Source: a virus. Taken from it: DNA of 40,877 nucleotides. Of the stretch, positions 4,991 to 35,939 are shown in pieces (position 1 is the stretch's first letter; each line of letters starts with the position of its first letter). A program made the translations under genes and the position numbers. The stretch is taken from UHGV virus genome UHGV-1515682; one strand, 5' to 3'. Under the pieces are notes generated by a model. The model saw only the letters and a program-made list of their open reading frames with translations. It was not told the origin of the DNA and searched no databases.

Positions 4991-6025
4991 TCAATATTTG
5001 ATATACGCGTCCTGCACTTTGCCGCCAGCGATAGCAAACATTGCTTTCTGCGCGAATTCTTCGGGAATGCCTTGGGCTATCAGATCTGCGATTACTCTGC
5101 GGTTAACGGTACGGCGATGCTCTTTATCTGCAGCTCGGCGCGCTTCTTCGTCGGCGATACGCTTCTGTTCGTCAAGGCGGGCTTTTTCTGCCGCCTCTTG
5201 GCGTCGGCGTTCCTCGGCAACGGCTTCTTCTTTTTCGCGTCGTGCACGCTGCTCTGCTTCAATTCGCTGACGTTCTGCTACTTCAGCACGTGCTTTTTCT
5301 TCCGCCGCCAGGCGTGCCGCAGCCTCAATTTCAGCTTTCGCTTTTTGTTCAGCTTCGAGCCTGGCCTGTTCAGCAGCTTCCCGGCGGATATTCTCTTCTC
5401 GCTCAATGCGCGCTTTTTCCTCCGCTTCTTTGCGAAGTCGCTCCAGCTCAGCGGCTTCATGCTCGTGTTTTTGAGCTACTGCGAGTGATTCTTCCAGTTT
5501 CTGGATGGTTGAATCCTTGGCTACTCCAGCTTCTGCTGCGTACTCCTGCCAACTTTCATCAAGTGCTACTGATTTAGCCTCTTGAATTCGTTCCTGAATA
5601 TCAGATGATGGCAAGTAGTTTCCGGAGAGATCGATCACGTCAGCTAGTGCTCGCAAATTTGTCAGGCGTTGTTGCAGTGCTTCAGTGCGTAATTTCTCAG
5701 CATTTTCCCACTCGGTGAGTGGGCGGCGTACTTCATCACGAAGCCGATCGCATTCGGTTACGAAGCGTCGTAACTCTGCTTCAACTACTTTCGGCTGTTC
5801 TTTCAGGCGTTTCAGATAATCACGTCCTGGTTTTTCTACCGCTGTTTTACTTCTTGAAACCTTCGCAGCCAGAGATGCAATGCGCTTTCTGCCTTTGTCT
5901 GTGCTAATGTCAGGCACTTCATTAACACCTTCACGGATCTGCTCGAGAAACTTTTCCAGCCCTTTTTCAACGTAAATTCTTGGTGCCATGTCTGGTGTGA
6001 TTTCGATGATTGATAATTCACTCAT
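4991..6025 (-). CDS. Hypothetical protein with long Glu/Ala/Arg/Lys-rich coiled-coil segment
   Basis: 344 aa; ~120 aa of EAxRxxAEEKAR-type repeats between N- and C-terminal globular regions; DNA 5040-5500 correspondingly repetitive. Confidence 0.6.
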   Translation of the reverse strand: MSELSIIEITPDMAPRIYVEKGLEKFLEQIREGVNEVPDISTDKGRKRIASLAAKVSRSKTAVEKPGRDYLKRLKEQPKVVEAELRRFVTECDRLRDEVRRPLTEWENAEKLRTEALQQRLTNLRALADVIDLSGNYLPSSDIQERIQEAKSVALDESWQEYAAEAGVAKDSTIQKLEESLAVAQKHEHEAAELERLRKEAEEKARIEREENIRREAAEQARLEAEQKAKAEIEAAARLAAEEKARAEVAERQRIEAEQRARREKEEAVAEERRRQEAAEKARLDEQKRIADEEARRAADKEHRRTVNRRVIADLIAQGIPEEFAQKAMFAIAGGKVQDAYIKY

Positions 6026-6202: not shown

Positions 6203-6217
6203 TTACCGTTGAGGTAA
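6203..6217. promoter_or_regulatory. Dyad operator-like site ttaccgttgaggtaa (OL-proximal)
   Basis: Perfect TTACC-N5-GGTAA; overlaps -10/+1 of predicted leftward promoter. Confidence 0.55.
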
Positions 6218-6245
6218 TAATTATGCTTATTTGGTTTGGTGTCAA
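6217..6245 (-). promoter_or_regulatory. Putative leftward early promoter (PL-like): TTGACA-17-AATTAT
   Basis: Minus-strand TTGACA (6245-6240) and AATTAT (6222-6217) with 17-nt spacer, flanked by two dyad sites 62 bp apart. Confidence 0.45.
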
Positions 6246-6264
6246 TAGATATGAGTTAAAAAAA

Positions 6265-6279
6265 TTACCCGTAAGGTAA
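6265..6279. promoter_or_regulatory. Dyad operator-like site ttacccgtaaggtaa (OL-distal)
   Basis: Perfect TTACC-N5-GGTAA upstream of putative PL -35. Confidence 0.55.
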
Positions 6280-6292
6280 TCTATCTGGCAAT

Positions 6293-6316
6293 AAAAAAGC
6301 CGCCATGAGGCGGCTT
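6293..6316 (-). terminator. Rho-independent terminator after repressor gene
   Basis: Minus-strand hairpin GCCGCC-TCAT-GGCGGC followed by T6 (A-run 6293-6298 on + strand). Confidence 0.6.
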
Positions 6317-6336: not shown

Positions 6337-6921
6337 TTATTGTTTGCTTTTTTCGTTCTGGTTGATGACAAATTCAATGTAACTTTCGATCTTTGCTTTC
6401 TCTGTTTCAGGTAACAATGCGTAGCGCGAGCGGTCATAGTTGATAGTTGCAGGGTCGTGCGGGTGAATCAGTAGTTCATATCCGTGACGCCCGAATGCAG
6501 ATGCAACATTCTCCAGGGTGGAAATGGAAACGCTGACCTCATTGTTTAACAGGCGGCTGATTGTCACCTGGGCTACGCCGGATGCGCGGTGAAGTTTTCC
6601 CTGTGTTGAAAGGTCGCGGCTTTCGCTCATCCAGCGTTCCAGGTTGTGAGCCGCCAGCTGGCCAATGTCGCTTGGGCCGACAGGCTGAAAACCTTCCTGA
6701 GAAAGCGAGCGATCGATATCAAGCCAGTTACGGGGTTTATTGGCGGCAGCTTCAATTTTTCGTGCAACCTGGTCGCCGATAACCTTCTTGCCAAGAGCCC
6801 AGCGGTTTACCAGATTTGCCTGAGTTCCAAGTTTTTCTGCCATCCGCGTCTGAACACCATTGAATTCACGGTCGATCAAGTCGTTGAGATTTTGCCTGCG
6901 GACGTCCTGGATACTTTTCAT
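6337..6921 (-). CDS. CI-like repressor with two HTH (XRE-type) regions and no recognisable S24 peptidase domain
   Basis: 194 aa; two XRE-like HTH stretches (…TRMAEKLGTQANLVNRWALGKK… and …ASGVAQVTISRLLNNEVSVSISTLENVA…); divergent from cro-like gene across an operator-rich intergenic region; no S24-like Ser/Lys motifs. Confidence 0.65.
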   Translation of the reverse strand: MKSIQDVRRQNLNDLIDREFNGVQTRMAEKLGTQANLVNRWALGKKVIGDQVARKIEAAANKPRNWLDIDRSLSQEGFQPVGPSDIGQLAAHNLERWMSESRDLSTQGKLHRASGVAQVTISRLLNNEVSVSISTLENVASAFGRHGYELLIHPHDPATINYDRSRYALLPETEKAKIESYIEFVINQNEKSKQ

Positions 6922-6976: not shown

Positions 6977-6991
6977 TTACCCAACAGGTAA
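6977..6991. promoter_or_regulatory. Dyad operator-like site ttacccaacaggtaa (OR region)
   Basis: Perfect TTACC-N5-GGTAA in repressor/cro intergenic region. Confidence 0.55.
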
Positions 6992-6993
6992 AT

Positions 6994-7008
6994 GCACCTC
7001 ATGGGTAA
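6994..7008. promoter_or_regulatory. Degenerate dyad site gcacctcatgggtaa (OR region)
   Basis: Half-site GGTAA with weak left half, 17 bp from site at 6977. Confidence 0.25.
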
Positions 7009-7021
7009 CTATCCTTGATTT

Positions 7022-7050
7022 TTGTTACCTTATGGGTGAATATTTATTAT
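7022..7050 (+). promoter_or_regulatory. Putative rightward early promoter (PR-like): TTGTTA-17-TATTAT
   Basis: -35 7022-7027, -10 7045-7050; dyad site 7025-7039 lies between the hexamers. Confidence 0.4.
7025..7039. promoter_or_regulatory. Dyad operator-like site ttaccttatgggtga (OR region)
   Basis: TTACC-N5-GGTGA (one mismatch), overlapping predicted PR spacer. Confidence 0.5.
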
Positions 7051-7075
7051 CTGAAATAAATATCAGGCAATAGCT

Positions 7076-7306
7076 ATGAGCGATAACGGACATTTCGATT
7101 TCAAAAAGCACTGGCTTGCACTTACTCCGGATGAGCGTGAAGCCTTCGCACAGGAAGCCGGAACGACGAGTCACTATATCCAGACTCACTTAACAGGTAA
7201 GCGCAAAATGCCAGGTAAAGTATTGATGAATGGGCTTTTTAAAGCCTGTAAAACAAGACAATGGCTGCGCTCAAAAGCAGAACTGGCATACTTCTTCTAC
7301 TCATGA
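7076..7306 (+). CDS. Cro-like small HTH regulator (YdaS/Cro-type)
   Basis: 76 aa; first rightward gene opposite repressor; HTH-like segment AFAQEAGTTSHYIQTHLTGKRKMPG. Confidence 0.55.
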   Translation: MSDNGHFDFKKHWLALTPDEREAFAQEAGTTSHYIQTHLTGKRKMPGKVLMNGLFKACKTRQWLRSKAELAYFFYS

Positions 7307-9283: not shown

Positions 9284-9298
9284 TTACCTGATGGGTAA
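9284..9298. promoter_or_regulatory. Dyad operator-like site ttacctgatgggtaa
   Basis: Perfect TTACC-N5-GGTAA; 62 bp upstream of site 9346. Confidence 0.5.
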
Positions 9299-9317
9299 TA
9301 AAATATCCTAAAATCTA

Positions 9318-9346
9318 TTGATTTCGTGTCTTATGTGGTTTTTAAT
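9318..9346 (+). promoter_or_regulatory. Putative promoter TTGATT-17-TTTAAT for nin-like operon
   Basis: -35 9318-9323, -10 9341-9346, bracketed by two dyad sites. Confidence 0.4.
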
Positions 9347-9360
9347 TACCTTAGAGGTAA
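9346..9360. promoter_or_regulatory. Dyad operator-like site ttaccttagaggtaa overlapping -10/RBS of gene at 9364
   Basis: Perfect TTACC-N5-GGTAA; right half doubles as GAGGT Shine-Dalgarno. Confidence 0.5.
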
Positions 9361-33758: not shown

Positions 33759-34445
33759 TCAGAAGAACCCTGCCTTGTCGTTGATGTACTCCGCGTGCGT
33801 CTGGATATCACGCAGGCATTTGCTCACACCAACGATGTAACAGAACATGGTGGTCAGCTCCGCCGCCGCGCCCGATACGTCGTGCCCGTCTTCCTGTAAC
33901 TGGTTCAGCAGATTCATCAGCAGTGAGTTCTCCGTCAGGCCGAGAACACCAGACGGCGAATGAATCAGGCTACGGTAGCCTGGCTTCAGTGGGGCACTGT
34001 AGGTTTTGTTCTCTATCTTCATCGCCTGCATTACTGCTGACGCCGTGGCGTTGGCTACCTGGTCGGCAACCATCTTTATGCGTTCTTCCTGCGGGAGCGA
34101 GTTTTTAATGTAACTTCCGGTGCGGCGGATCTGAGGAAGAACCTCACCTGTAACCCATTTACGAAAGCGGTATGGGATAGTGCCTGGTGTCACCGCATCG
34201 CGGCAGCGGAGGATCAGTGTGTAGAGGCCTGACTCGTTGATAATATTGGTTTCGCCTTGACGGCCTAAGTTAAATTTAGCCCTTTCATCATCATCAAGAG
34301 ATTTTATTGACATAGTGGGGTTTGTCAGTTGAAGAGCTTTAATAACGTCTTTGGCAACAAACCAAGGATTTCCATCAATAACAATGGCTCGAATGGTTGC
34401 TTCTGATTCAAAATGAAAAACAGATGGGGTTACGTTAGCAGTCAT
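33759..34445 (-). CDS. Bro-N domain antirepressor-like protein
   Basis: 228 aa from ATG 34445; N-terminal Bro-N signature (FHFESEATIRAIVIDGNPWFVAKDV…GLYTLILR…RFRKWVTGEVLPQIRRTGSY); C-terminal ~70 aa homologous to the product of 35591-35848. Confidence 0.75.
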   Translation of the reverse strand: MTANVTPSVFHFESEATIRAIVIDGNPWFVAKDVIKALQLTNPTMSIKSLDDDERAKFNLGRQGETNIINESGLYTLILRCRDAVTPGTIPYRFRKWVTGEVLPQIRRTGSYIKNSLPQEERIKMVADQVANATASAVMQAMKIENKTYSAPLKPGYRSLIHSPSGVLGLTENSLLMNLLNQLQEDGHDVSGAAAELTTMFCYIVGVSKCLRDIQTHAEYINDKAGFF

Positions 34446-34721
34446 AGTGATCACCTTTGTAGTTAGGTTAATCACCACTACCGACGCCAATCGGTTGGTG
34501 GTGAACTGTGCAGGGTTGGCGTAACCGGCTACAAAGGACCCGGCGCACCTTTCGGTGCCCCCACACAGCCCACCATAGAATAGGTGCGCTTTACACATAA
34601 AAAAACCGCTTATGCGGCATATGTGCCTCTGTAGTAATCCGGGACGCCAATCCCGGCACTGGATTTTGCCAGTGCCCGATTACTATGGCACAAGAGGAGT
34701 GCGATGTAAATTTACCGTAAA

Positions 34722-35590: not shown

Positions 35591-35848
35591 TTACCGGGTT
35601 TGTTTTCGTAATTGTTCGGCACAATAGTCGAGATGTGTTTGCAGATCCCGCATAGACATCTGTGAGCTGGTGACGTAGTTAATCAGTGCAGTCAGTTCGG
35701 CAAGTGGGCCATCGACATTAAATCCATCCTTATCGAGATCCCGGAGTAATTTCATCAAGTGCGATCCCTCCACCAGTGACCTGACGCCTCCCGGCGTGTG
35801 AATCCTTTCGGTAAATCCGTCTTCCAGTGGATAGTGATACTGCTGCAT
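35591..35848 (-). CDS. Small antirepressor-like protein behind a LexA box
   Basis: 85 aa from ATG 35848 (MQQYHYPLEDGF…) with GGAGAAG RBS; homologous to C-terminal domain of Bro-N protein; near-consensus LexA box 20 bp upstream. Confidence 0.6.
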   Translation of the reverse strand: MQQYHYPLEDGFTERIHTPGGVRSLVEGSHLMKLLRDLDKDGFNVDGPLAELTALINYVTSSQMSMRDLQTHLDYCAEQLRKQTR

Positions 35849-35867: not shown

Positions 35868-35887
35868 AACTGTATGTTTATACAGTA
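35868..35887. promoter_or_regulatory. LexA (SOS) box AACTGTATGTTTATACAGTA
   Basis: CTGT-N8-ACAG with AT-rich spacer, 17/20 to TACTGTATATATATACAGTA; overlaps TATAAA -10-like hexamer on minus strand. Confidence 0.65.
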
Positions 35888-35924: not shown

Positions 35925-35939
35925 TTACCTGAAAGGTAA
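35925..35939. promoter_or_regulatory. Dyad operator-like site ttacctgaaaggtaa
   Basis: Perfect TTACC-N5-GGTAA upstream of LexA box. Confidence 0.5.

What the first reader, a model, noticed from the sequence alone, without database searches (positions are those of the whole stretch)
6337..6921. Repressor with tandem HTH regions and no peptidase domain
The protein at the cI position contains two XRE-like helix-turn-helix stretches in one 194-aa polypeptide and lacks the Ser/Lys S24 motifs of LexA-like repressors. A single chain carrying two DNA-binding units might read one dyad site as a monomer, or bridge two sites such as the 62-bp-spaced pairs.
Basis: inference. Interest (0 to 1): 0.5.

Follow-up and report, generated by a model that had tools for sequence, protein, structure and literature searches.

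The report
Known phiV10/SPC32H-type Rep repressor
This gene is the already described prophage repressor of phiV10/epsilon15-like phages: it does carry two helix-turn-helix-fold domains and no self-cleaving peptidase. In its crystallised Salmonella homologue the second domain is a dimerisation module, and the repressor is switched off by a LexA-controlled antirepressor that is also encoded in this window.

Summary
ORF 6337..6921 (-) encodes 194 aa with two XRE/HTH-fold domains (about 1-72 and 89-155), a roughly 40-aa C-terminal tail, and no S24 peptidase.

It is not new. The window is a phiV10-like Uetakevirus. The protein is 99.5-100% identical to phiV10 p40, whose GenBank note already says "two helix-turn-helix motifs". 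It is also 99.5% identical to vB_EcoP_ZX5 ORF21, a repressor tested by overexpression. It aligns end to end (E 3.5e-42) with Salmonella phage SPC32H Rep, which has crystal structures 5D50 and 5D4Z.

In SPC32H Rep the N-terminal domain binds DNA, the middle HTH-fold domain dimerises, and the C-terminal segment tetramerises and binds the antirepressor Ant. Induction works through LexA-controlled Ant, not RecA cleavage. The window holds the whole system:
- Ant at 35591..35848 (-), 87% identical to SPC32H Ant.
- A perfect LexA box at 35870-35885.
- 16 symmetric TTACC-N5-GGTAA operator-like sites against 0.65 expected.

The symmetric sites and the invariant N-terminal recognition helix argue against one chain reading a dyad with two unlike HTHs. 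Two sites are probably bridged, but by a tetramer. Novelty: already known. Interest is low.

The parts
6337..6921 (-). rep: prophage repressor, 194 aa plus stop
   Evidence: ORF. 99.5-100% identical to the phiV10, ZX5 and HEMP4 repressors. Matches PDB 5d50_A (SPC32H Rep) at E 3.5e-42 over residues 1-190.
6706..6921 (-). Rep residues 1-72: N-terminal HTH domain, inferred DNA-binding domain
   Evidence: YdaS_toxin and HTH_3 matches, both below cut-off. phrog_5736 and phrog_12107 repressor families. Net charge +5. Helix 3 NLVNRW is unchanged in the window, SPC32H and BUCT711 Reps. Called the DBD in SPC32H Rep (PMC9986798).
6457..6657 (-). Rep residues 89-155: second, XRE-fold (HTH_3) domain, inferred dimerisation domain (MDD of SPC32H Rep)
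   Evidence: HTH_3 26.8 bits, above the cut-off. AF2 pLDDT 90.8. Foldseek TM 0.88 at 1.5 A to 5d4z_H, plus SinR, C.AhdI and DdrO DNA-binding domains. Net charge 0.
6340..6456 (-). Rep residues 156-194: C-terminal segment, inferred tetramerisation and Ant-binding element (CAD/TetDloop of SPC32H Rep)
   Evidence: 54% identical to SPC32H Rep, against 33% for the middle domain. No Pfam family. Role taken from PMC9986798.
6977..7039 (.). Three operator-like palindromes in the rep/cro gap (6977-6991, 6994-7008, 7025-7039). The last overlaps a rightward promoter-like site at 7022-7050.
   Evidence: Motif search, sequence, promoter scan. SPC32H and BUCT711 have the same 17-bp tandem, and SPC32H also has the third site 30 bp further on, against 31 bp here.
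7076..7306 (+). cro-like divergent gene, 76 aa
   Evidence: phrog_35 transcriptional repressor, E 5.6e-13. 76% identical to SPC32H_042.
6203..6279 (.). Operator-like pair 62 bp apart (6203-6217 and 6265-6279), bracketing a leftward promoter-like site (6245 to 6217)
   Evidence: Pairs at 62-63 bp are also present in SPC32H and BUCT711.
9284..9360 (.). Second operator-like pair 62 bp apart (9284-9298 and 9346-9360)
   Evidence: both sites are intergenic.
35591..35848 (-). ant: small antirepressor, 85 aa
   Evidence: 87% identical to SPC32H Ant. Matches PDB 5d50_E at E 1.4e-46. phrog_450.
35870..35885 (.). LexA box CTGTATGTTTATACAG, 22 bp upstream of the ant start codon
   Evidence: Conserved at the same place in SPC32H.
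35925..35939 (.). Operator-like palindrome upstream of ant
   Evidence: conserved in SPC32H.

Best explanation
The gene encodes the lysogeny repressor (Rep) of a phiV10/epsilon15-type podophage and is a member of the family whose structure was solved for Salmonella phage SPC32H.

It has three parts:
- An N-terminal HTH domain that reads the symmetric ATTACC-N5-GGTAAT operators.
- A middle domain that keeps the XRE/HTH_3 fold and sequence signature but serves as a dimerisation module.
- A short C-terminal segment that joins two dimers into a tetramer and is the docking site for the antirepressor.

The tetramer presents two pairs of N-terminal domains, so it can hold two palindromes at once. These could be the 17/31-bp cluster over the rep/cro promoters or the 62-bp pairs that bracket other promoters.

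There is no S24 peptidase, so the SOS signal enters indirectly. LexA represses ant. After DNA damage Ant is made, binds Rep, splits the tetramer into dimers and releases the DNA.

Shown here: the domain anatomy, the homology, the presence of Ant with a LexA box, and the enriched symmetric sites. Taken from papers on relatives: repressor activity, tetramer binding and Ant action. Inferred: which sites are bound and how they are paired.
For: - Full-length match to SPC32H Rep 5d50_A, E 3.5e-42 over residues 1-190. Foldseek top hits are 5d50 and 5d4z.
- The near-identical ZX5 ORF21 (99.5%) abolished free phage and cut lysis-gene transcripts by more than 99.9% when overexpressed (PMC9782041).
- Domain roles and tetramer binding come from PMC9986798 and PMC9638917.
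- The window has an Ant homologue 87% identical to SPC32H Ant, matching 5d50_E at E 1.4e-46. A perfect LexA box lies 22 bp upstream and is conserved in SPC32H.
- There is no S24 match.
- TTACC-N5-GGTAA occurs 16 times against 0.65 expected. The sites are almost all intergenic and symmetric.
- The same motif and spacings occur in SPC32H and BUCT711. The N-terminal helix 3 is invariant across these phages, while the middle-domain helix varies.
- Net charge is +5 for the N-terminal domain and 0 for the middle domain.
Against: - No binding or oligomer data exist for this exact protein. The primary SPC32H papers (PMC4983836, PMC3807360) could not be read here, so domain roles rest on two citing papers and on my memory of the abstract.
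- By sequence, the stronger HTH signature is in the middle domain, so a DNA contact by that domain is not excluded.
- Identity to SPC32H Rep is only 43% overall and 33% in the middle domain.
- That TTACC-N5-GGTAA is the Rep operator, rather than a site for Cro or another factor, is inferred.
Confidence: 0.85

Rival explanations
1. One reading: one polypeptide uses its two HTH units as two reading heads, so a monomer occupies one dyad, or one chain bridges two sites.
For: Two real XRE-fold domains sit in one chain, joined by a low-confidence, poorly conserved linker. The middle domain passes Pfam's HTH_3 cut-off.
Against: - The sites are twofold symmetric, whereas the two domains are unrelated in sequence and have different recognition helices.
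- The middle-domain helix changes between phages that keep the same half-site.
- The middle domain has net charge 0.
- The homologue binds DNA as a tetramer through its N-terminal domains, and its middle domain is a dimerisation domain.
Confidence: 0.03
2. The protein is Rep-like, but the middle XRE-fold domain has a dual role. It dimerises and also makes auxiliary DNA contacts, for example to the spacer, to flanking DNA or to looped DNA, adding affinity or setting the preferred 62-bp pairing.
For: The HTH_3 and HTH_26 signatures are above cut-off. Q118 and R123 at recognition-helix positions are nearly invariant or invariant in 49 relatives. The fold is about 1.3-1.8 A from true DNA-binding domains.
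Against: The domain is neutral in charge. Papers describe it only as a dimerisation domain. Q118 is Pro in SPC32H Rep.
Confidence: 0.1
3. The protein is an ordinary XRE regulator or antitoxin-like protein, as annotated 'VapI antidote' in phage BP9, and not the immunity repressor.
For: One GenBank record uses that name (H4). There are weak HigA and HipB NCBIfam matches, far below their cut-offs.
Against: It sits at the cI position opposite a cro-like gene. It is homologous to the experimentally defined SPC32H and epsilon15 repressors. ZX5 ORF21 overexpression blocks lytic growth. No toxin gene lies next to it.
Confidence: 0.02

Closest known systems
Rep of Salmonella phage SPC32H (PDB 5D50 Rep-Ant complex, 5D4Z Rep 92-198; Kim et al. 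PNAS 2016; Kim and Ryu J Virol 2013), and the near-identical epsilon15, SPN1S and SPC32N repressors
   Same: - Same length and three-part layout, alignable end to end.
- Same genomic position opposite a 76%-identical cro-like gene.
- Same TTACC-N5-GGTAA sites, and 62-bp pairs.
- Same small Ant (87% identical) with a conserved LexA box.
- No S24 domain in either.
   Different: Only 43% identical overall: 53% in the N-terminal domain, 33% in the middle domain and 54% in the C-terminal segment. The operator spacers are less A/T-rich here than in SPC32H. The window also carries a second, Bro-N-fused Ant-like protein; whether SPC32H has one was not checked.
phiV10 p40 (AAZ95929.1) and vB_EcoP_ZX5 ORF21
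   Same: 99.5% identical. The phiV10 record already notes 'two helix-turn-helix motifs (PF01381)'. ZX5 ORF21 was shown to block the lytic cycle when overexpressed.
   Different: Essentially nothing; one residue differs.
Lambda CI, 434 and P22 C2 repressors and LexA (HTH plus S24 autopeptidase)
   Same: An N-terminal XRE-type HTH reads palindromic operators at a divergent promoter region, and higher-order oligomers link separate operators.
   Different: There is no S24 domain. Oligomerisation is by an HTH-fold domain plus a short C-terminal element. Inactivation is reversible, by an antirepressor, rather than by RecA-stimulated self-cleavage.
Rco of Bacillus plasmid pLS20 (DBD plus TetDloop, p53-like tetramerisation domain)
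   Same: According to PMC9986798, both have an N-terminal XRE DBD and a C-terminal tetramerisation element, loop or bridge DNA, and are controlled by an antirepressor.
   Different: Rco lacks the middle HTH-fold dimerisation domain. No sequence relationship was tested here.
SinR/SinI of Bacillus subtilis
   Same: The XRE HTH domain is structurally close to the middle domain (3qq6, 1.3 A). SinR is a tetrameric repressor inactivated by a small protein antagonist.
   Different: SinR has a single HTH domain that binds DNA, and its oligomerisation domain is unrelated.

Membership tests
SPC32H/epsilon15-type Rep repressor (Rep-Ant-LexA switch) | Full-length sequence homology to Rep covering all three regions | tested here: met
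   phmmer against PDB: 5d50_A at E 3.5e-42, residues 1-190 aligned to 2-197. tblastn gives 43% identity over 99% of the query.
SPC32H/epsilon15-type Rep repressor (Rep-Ant-LexA switch) | N-terminal HTH DNA-binding domain | tested here: met
   Cro-like and HTH_3 matches at residues 21-67, below cut-off. Repressor PHROGs over residues 1-76. 53% identical to the Rep N-terminal domain, with an invariant NLVNRW helix. DNA binding itself was not testable.
SPC32H/epsilon15-type Rep repressor (Rep-Ant-LexA switch) | Middle domain with the fold seen in 5D4Z (dimerisation domain) | tested here: met
   The AF2 model of residues 83-160 against 5d4z_H gives TM 0.88 at 1.5 A. Dimerisation is not testable with these tools.
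SPC32H/epsilon15-type Rep repressor (Rep-Ant-LexA switch) | C-terminal tetramerisation and Ant-binding segment; tetrameric DNA-binding form | not testable with these tools
   The segment is 54% identical. The full-length model gives TM 0.77 to 5d4z_H, a chain covering Rep 92-198. The oligomeric state needs experiment or multimer modelling.
SPC32H/epsilon15-type Rep repressor (Rep-Ant-LexA switch) | Cognate small antirepressor Ant in the same genome | tested here: met
   35591..35848 (-), 87% identical to SPC32H Ant; 5d50_E at E 1.4e-46.
SPC32H/epsilon15-type Rep repressor (Rep-Ant-LexA switch) | LexA box at the ant promoter | tested here: met
   CTGTATGTTTATACAG at 35870-35885, conserved in SPC32H.
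SPC32H/epsilon15-type Rep repressor (Rep-Ant-LexA switch) | Not cleaved in the SOS response; no autopeptidase | tested here: met
   No Peptidase_S24 match at E<=10, and no family for the last 42 residues. Absence of cleavage in vivo was not testable.
SPC32H/epsilon15-type Rep repressor (Rep-Ant-LexA switch) | Represses the lytic genes | not testable with these tools
   Reported for the 99.5%-identical ZX5 ORF21 (PMC9782041).
LexA / lambda CI-type autocleavable repressors (HTH + Peptidase_S24) | C-terminal S24 serine-lysine peptidase domain | tested here: not met
   No S24 match. Only about 40 residues follow the second domain, and the model is all-helical.
Pfam HTH_3 / XRE family | Score above Pfam's gathering cut-off | tested here: met
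   Whole protein 38.5 bits (cut-off 23). Middle domain alone 26.8 bits, N-half alone 16 bits, which is below the cut-off.

The most novel reading that the evidence does not exclude
The middle XRE-fold domain may not be merely a fossil HTH reused for dimerisation. It may still touch DNA. Each Rep tetramer would then carry eight HTH units, four specific and four auxiliary, and the auxiliary contacts would help set the conserved 62-bp pairing of operators around promoters.
Probability: 0.1. Interest if true: 0.45.

Novelty: already known. Interest (0 to 1): 0.15.

Why it matters
It matters little as a discovery. The protein, its two HTH motifs, its lack of a peptidase domain and its induction route are all on record for phiV10, ZX5 and SPC32H.

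The follow-up has two practical uses. It corrects the mechanistic guess: the working unit is a tetramer with one DNA-reading domain per chain, plus an antirepressor. It also shows that this window carries the complete Rep-Ant-LexA switch with a genome-wide set of operator-like palindromes.

Two small open questions remain. Why does a dimerisation domain keep such a clean HTH_3 signature? And what do the conserved 62-bp site pairs do?

Tried and rejected
- Tandem duplication of one HTH: BLASTP of the N-half against the C-half found no alignment, so it is not a recent duplication.
- Cryptic S24 domain: Pfam at E<=10 on the whole protein and on the last 42 residues found nothing.
- Toxin-antitoxin reading (the YdaS, HigA, HipB and VapI names): the scores are far below the cut-offs, and there is no partner toxin gene. 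Rejected.
- Primary SPC32H and epsilon15 papers (PMC4983836, PMC3807360, PMC2698709, and the DOI): none is held in the library. I relied on two citing papers and on my memory of the abstracts.
- Literature search for phiV10 operators: nothing beyond the ZX5 paper.
- Word-indexed homologue search: it returned only 86 enterobacterial clusters at 52-98% identity and missed the 43% epsilon15 group. I did not use the exhaustive representative search because the family assignment was already clear.
- Full-length AF2 model: moderate quality (pLDDT 75.7, linker below 50), and the relative domain placement is meaningless. I therefore remodelled the middle domain alone.

Full report
**The observation**

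The ORF at 6337..6921 on the minus strand is real: ATG start, 194 aa. It diverges from a 76-aa cro-like gene at 7076..7306 (phrog_35, E 5.6e-13) across a 154-bp gap. A hairpin-plus-T terminator follows it at 6297-6316.

Pfam finds HTH_3 on the whole protein at E 1.2e-9 with two matched stretches. It also finds the Cro-like YdaS_toxin model over residues 21-61. No Peptidase_S24 match appears even at E<=10.

I then scanned the parts separately:
- N-half: YdaS_toxin 20.5 bits and HTH_3 16 bits, both below the gathering cut-offs.
- Middle part: HTH_3 26.8 bits (cut-off 23) and HTH_26 26.2 bits (cut-off 22).
- Last 42 residues: no match.

BLASTP finds no similarity between the two halves.

The full-length AlphaFold2 model is all-helical, with mean pLDDT 75.7 and a disordered linker at residues 65-82. 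A model of residues 83-160 alone is confident, with pLDDT 90.8 and five helices. It superposes on SPC32H Rep 5d4z_H (TM 0.88, 1.5 A). It also superposes on true XRE DNA-binding domains: SinR 3qq6 at 1.3 A, C.AhdI at 1.4 A, DdrO and P22 C2.

**What the window is, and whether this is new**

The region is 97-98% identical to phiV10, TL-2011b, ZX5, PAS61, phiv142-3 and HEMP4. The first 25 kb match the same Uetakevirus phages at about 98%.

The protein is 99.5-100% identical to their repressors. It is 43-45% identical to those of epsilon15, SPN1S, SPC32H and Klebsiella Uetakeviruses.

ZX5 ORF21 is 99.5% identical to the window protein. Overexpressing it removed free phage and reduced endolysin and holin transcripts by 99.99% and 99.97% (PMC9782041).

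**A solved homologue**

phmmer against the PDB gives 5d50_A, the SPC32H Rep in the Rep-Ant complex, at E 3.5e-42 over residues 1-190. It also gives 5d4z, Rep 92-198. Foldseek puts the same entries first.

I could not open the primary papers. Two citing papers describe the system:
- PMC9986798 says Rep has an N-terminal DBD, a middle dimerisation domain (MDD) and a C-terminal "CAD"/TetDloop. The last makes tetramers and binds the antirepressor Ant.
- PMC9638917 says Rep binds DNA as a tetramer and the dimeric form binds only weakly. The pairs of DNA-binding domains that read a palindrome come from different dimers. The Ant tetramer binds two Rep dimers and breaks the tetramer.

From my own memory of the abstract of Kim and Ryu 2013, Rep is not cleaved in the SOS response and ant is repressed by LexA.

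**The rest of the switch is in the window**

A tblastn with SPC32H Ant finds 35591..35848 (-), 85 aa and 87% identical. It matches 5d50_E at E 1.4e-46.

A perfect LexA box, CTGTATGTTTATACAG, lies at 35870-35885, 22 bp upstream of the ant start. The box and a neighbouring ATTACC-N5-GGTAAT site are both conserved in the SPC32H ant upstream region.

A second protein at 33759..34598 (-), 279 aa, joins a Bro-N domain to an Ant-like C-terminus.

**Operators**

TTACC-N5-GGTAA with at most one mismatch occurs 16 times against 0.65 expected. A seventeenth site with two mismatches lies at 6994. Nearly all sites are intergenic.

- Three sites sit in the rep/cro gap at 6977, 6994 and 7025. The last overlaps a rightward promoter-like site.
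- Two pairs are exactly 62 bp apart, at 6203/6265 and 9284/9346. The first pair brackets a leftward promoter-like site.
- The motif is symmetric. Its matrix correlates at 0.95 with its reverse complement, and mismatches are 4 in the left halves against 3 in the right.

SPC32H has 18 such sites against 0.66 expected, and Klebsiella phage BUCT711 has 13. Both have the 17-bp tandem in the rep/cro gap and the 62-63-bp pairs.

Across the window, SPC32H and BUCT711 Reps, N-terminal helix 3 (NLVNRW) does not change. The corresponding middle-domain helix does change: QVTISRLL, PATVNRIM, QATVNRIL.

The N-terminal domain has net charge +5 and the middle domain 0. Among 49 relatives the N-terminal domain is the best-conserved part.

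That these palindromes are Rep's operators is an inference. I recall that the epsilon15 and phiV10 literature proposed the same motif, but I could not check this.

**Mechanism**

The best-supported reading is as follows.
- The N-terminal HTH reads the symmetric half-sites.
- The middle XRE-fold domain dimerises.
- The C-terminal segment makes the tetramer and binds Ant.
- The tetramer's two pairs of N-terminal domains hold two palindromes at once.
- DNA damage removes LexA from the ant promoter, and Ant dismantles the tetramer.

A monomer reading one dyad with two unlike HTHs does not fit the symmetric sites, the unrelated recognition helices, or the tetramer described for the homologue. Bridging of two sites is likely, but by the tetramer.

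A residual possibility of about 0.1 is that the middle domain, whose HTH_3 signature is oddly the stronger of the two, still contacts DNA.

**Verdict**

The feature is already known: the same protein is annotated and tested in sister phages, and the family has been crystallised. Interest is low.

Noticed in passing
window 136, 6203, 6265, 6977, 6994, 7025, 7362, 9284, 9346, 12780, 12798, 15700, 16316, 33673, 34712, 34805, 35925: ATTACC-N5-GGTAAT palindromes occur genome-wide, 16 against 0.65 expected, almost all intergenic. Two exact 62-bp pairs are among them. The same motif, 62-63-bp pairs and the 17-bp tandem in the rep/cro gap occur in SPC32H (L001) and Klebsiella phage BUCT711 (L003), although their Reps are only 43-45% identical. 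This raises the question of what sets immunity specificity.
   Followed up: partly
window 35591..35848 (-) compared with 6337..6921 (-): Ant is 87% identical to SPC32H Ant while its partner Rep is only 43% identical (54% in the C-terminal Ant-binding segment). The two interacting partners have diverged very unevenly.
   Followed up: partly
window 33759..34598 (-): A 279-aa ORF joins a Bro-N domain (PF02498, E 7.8e-20) to a C-terminal Ant-like domain (phrog_450; 38% identical to SPC32H Ant). Two TTACC-N5-GGTAA sites (34712, 34805) lie upstream, and no CTG-N10-CAG (LexA-type) match lies there. It is a possible second antirepressor under different control, of the Bro-N type like the ORF4 tested in the ZX5 paper.
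   Followed up: partly
window 4991..6025 (-): A 344-aa ORF has a long, highly charged Ala/Glu/Arg/Lys-rich region. It matches phrog_1376 (unknown function, E 2e-122) and no Pfam family. It lies between rep and the recE/recT-like genes, where the phiV10 record lists only two small genes.
   Followed up: partly
window 6457..6657 (-) (Rep residues 89-155): The domain that papers call a dimerisation domain scores above Pfam's HTH_3 and HTH_26 cut-offs. The accepted DNA-binding N-terminal domain scores below them.
   Followed up: partly
window 7051-7066: CTGAAATAAATATCAG, a CTG-N10-CAG sequence, lies just upstream of the cro-like start codon. It is only a weak LexA-box look-alike and I saw no counterpart in the SPC32H rep/cro gap.
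   Followed up: no
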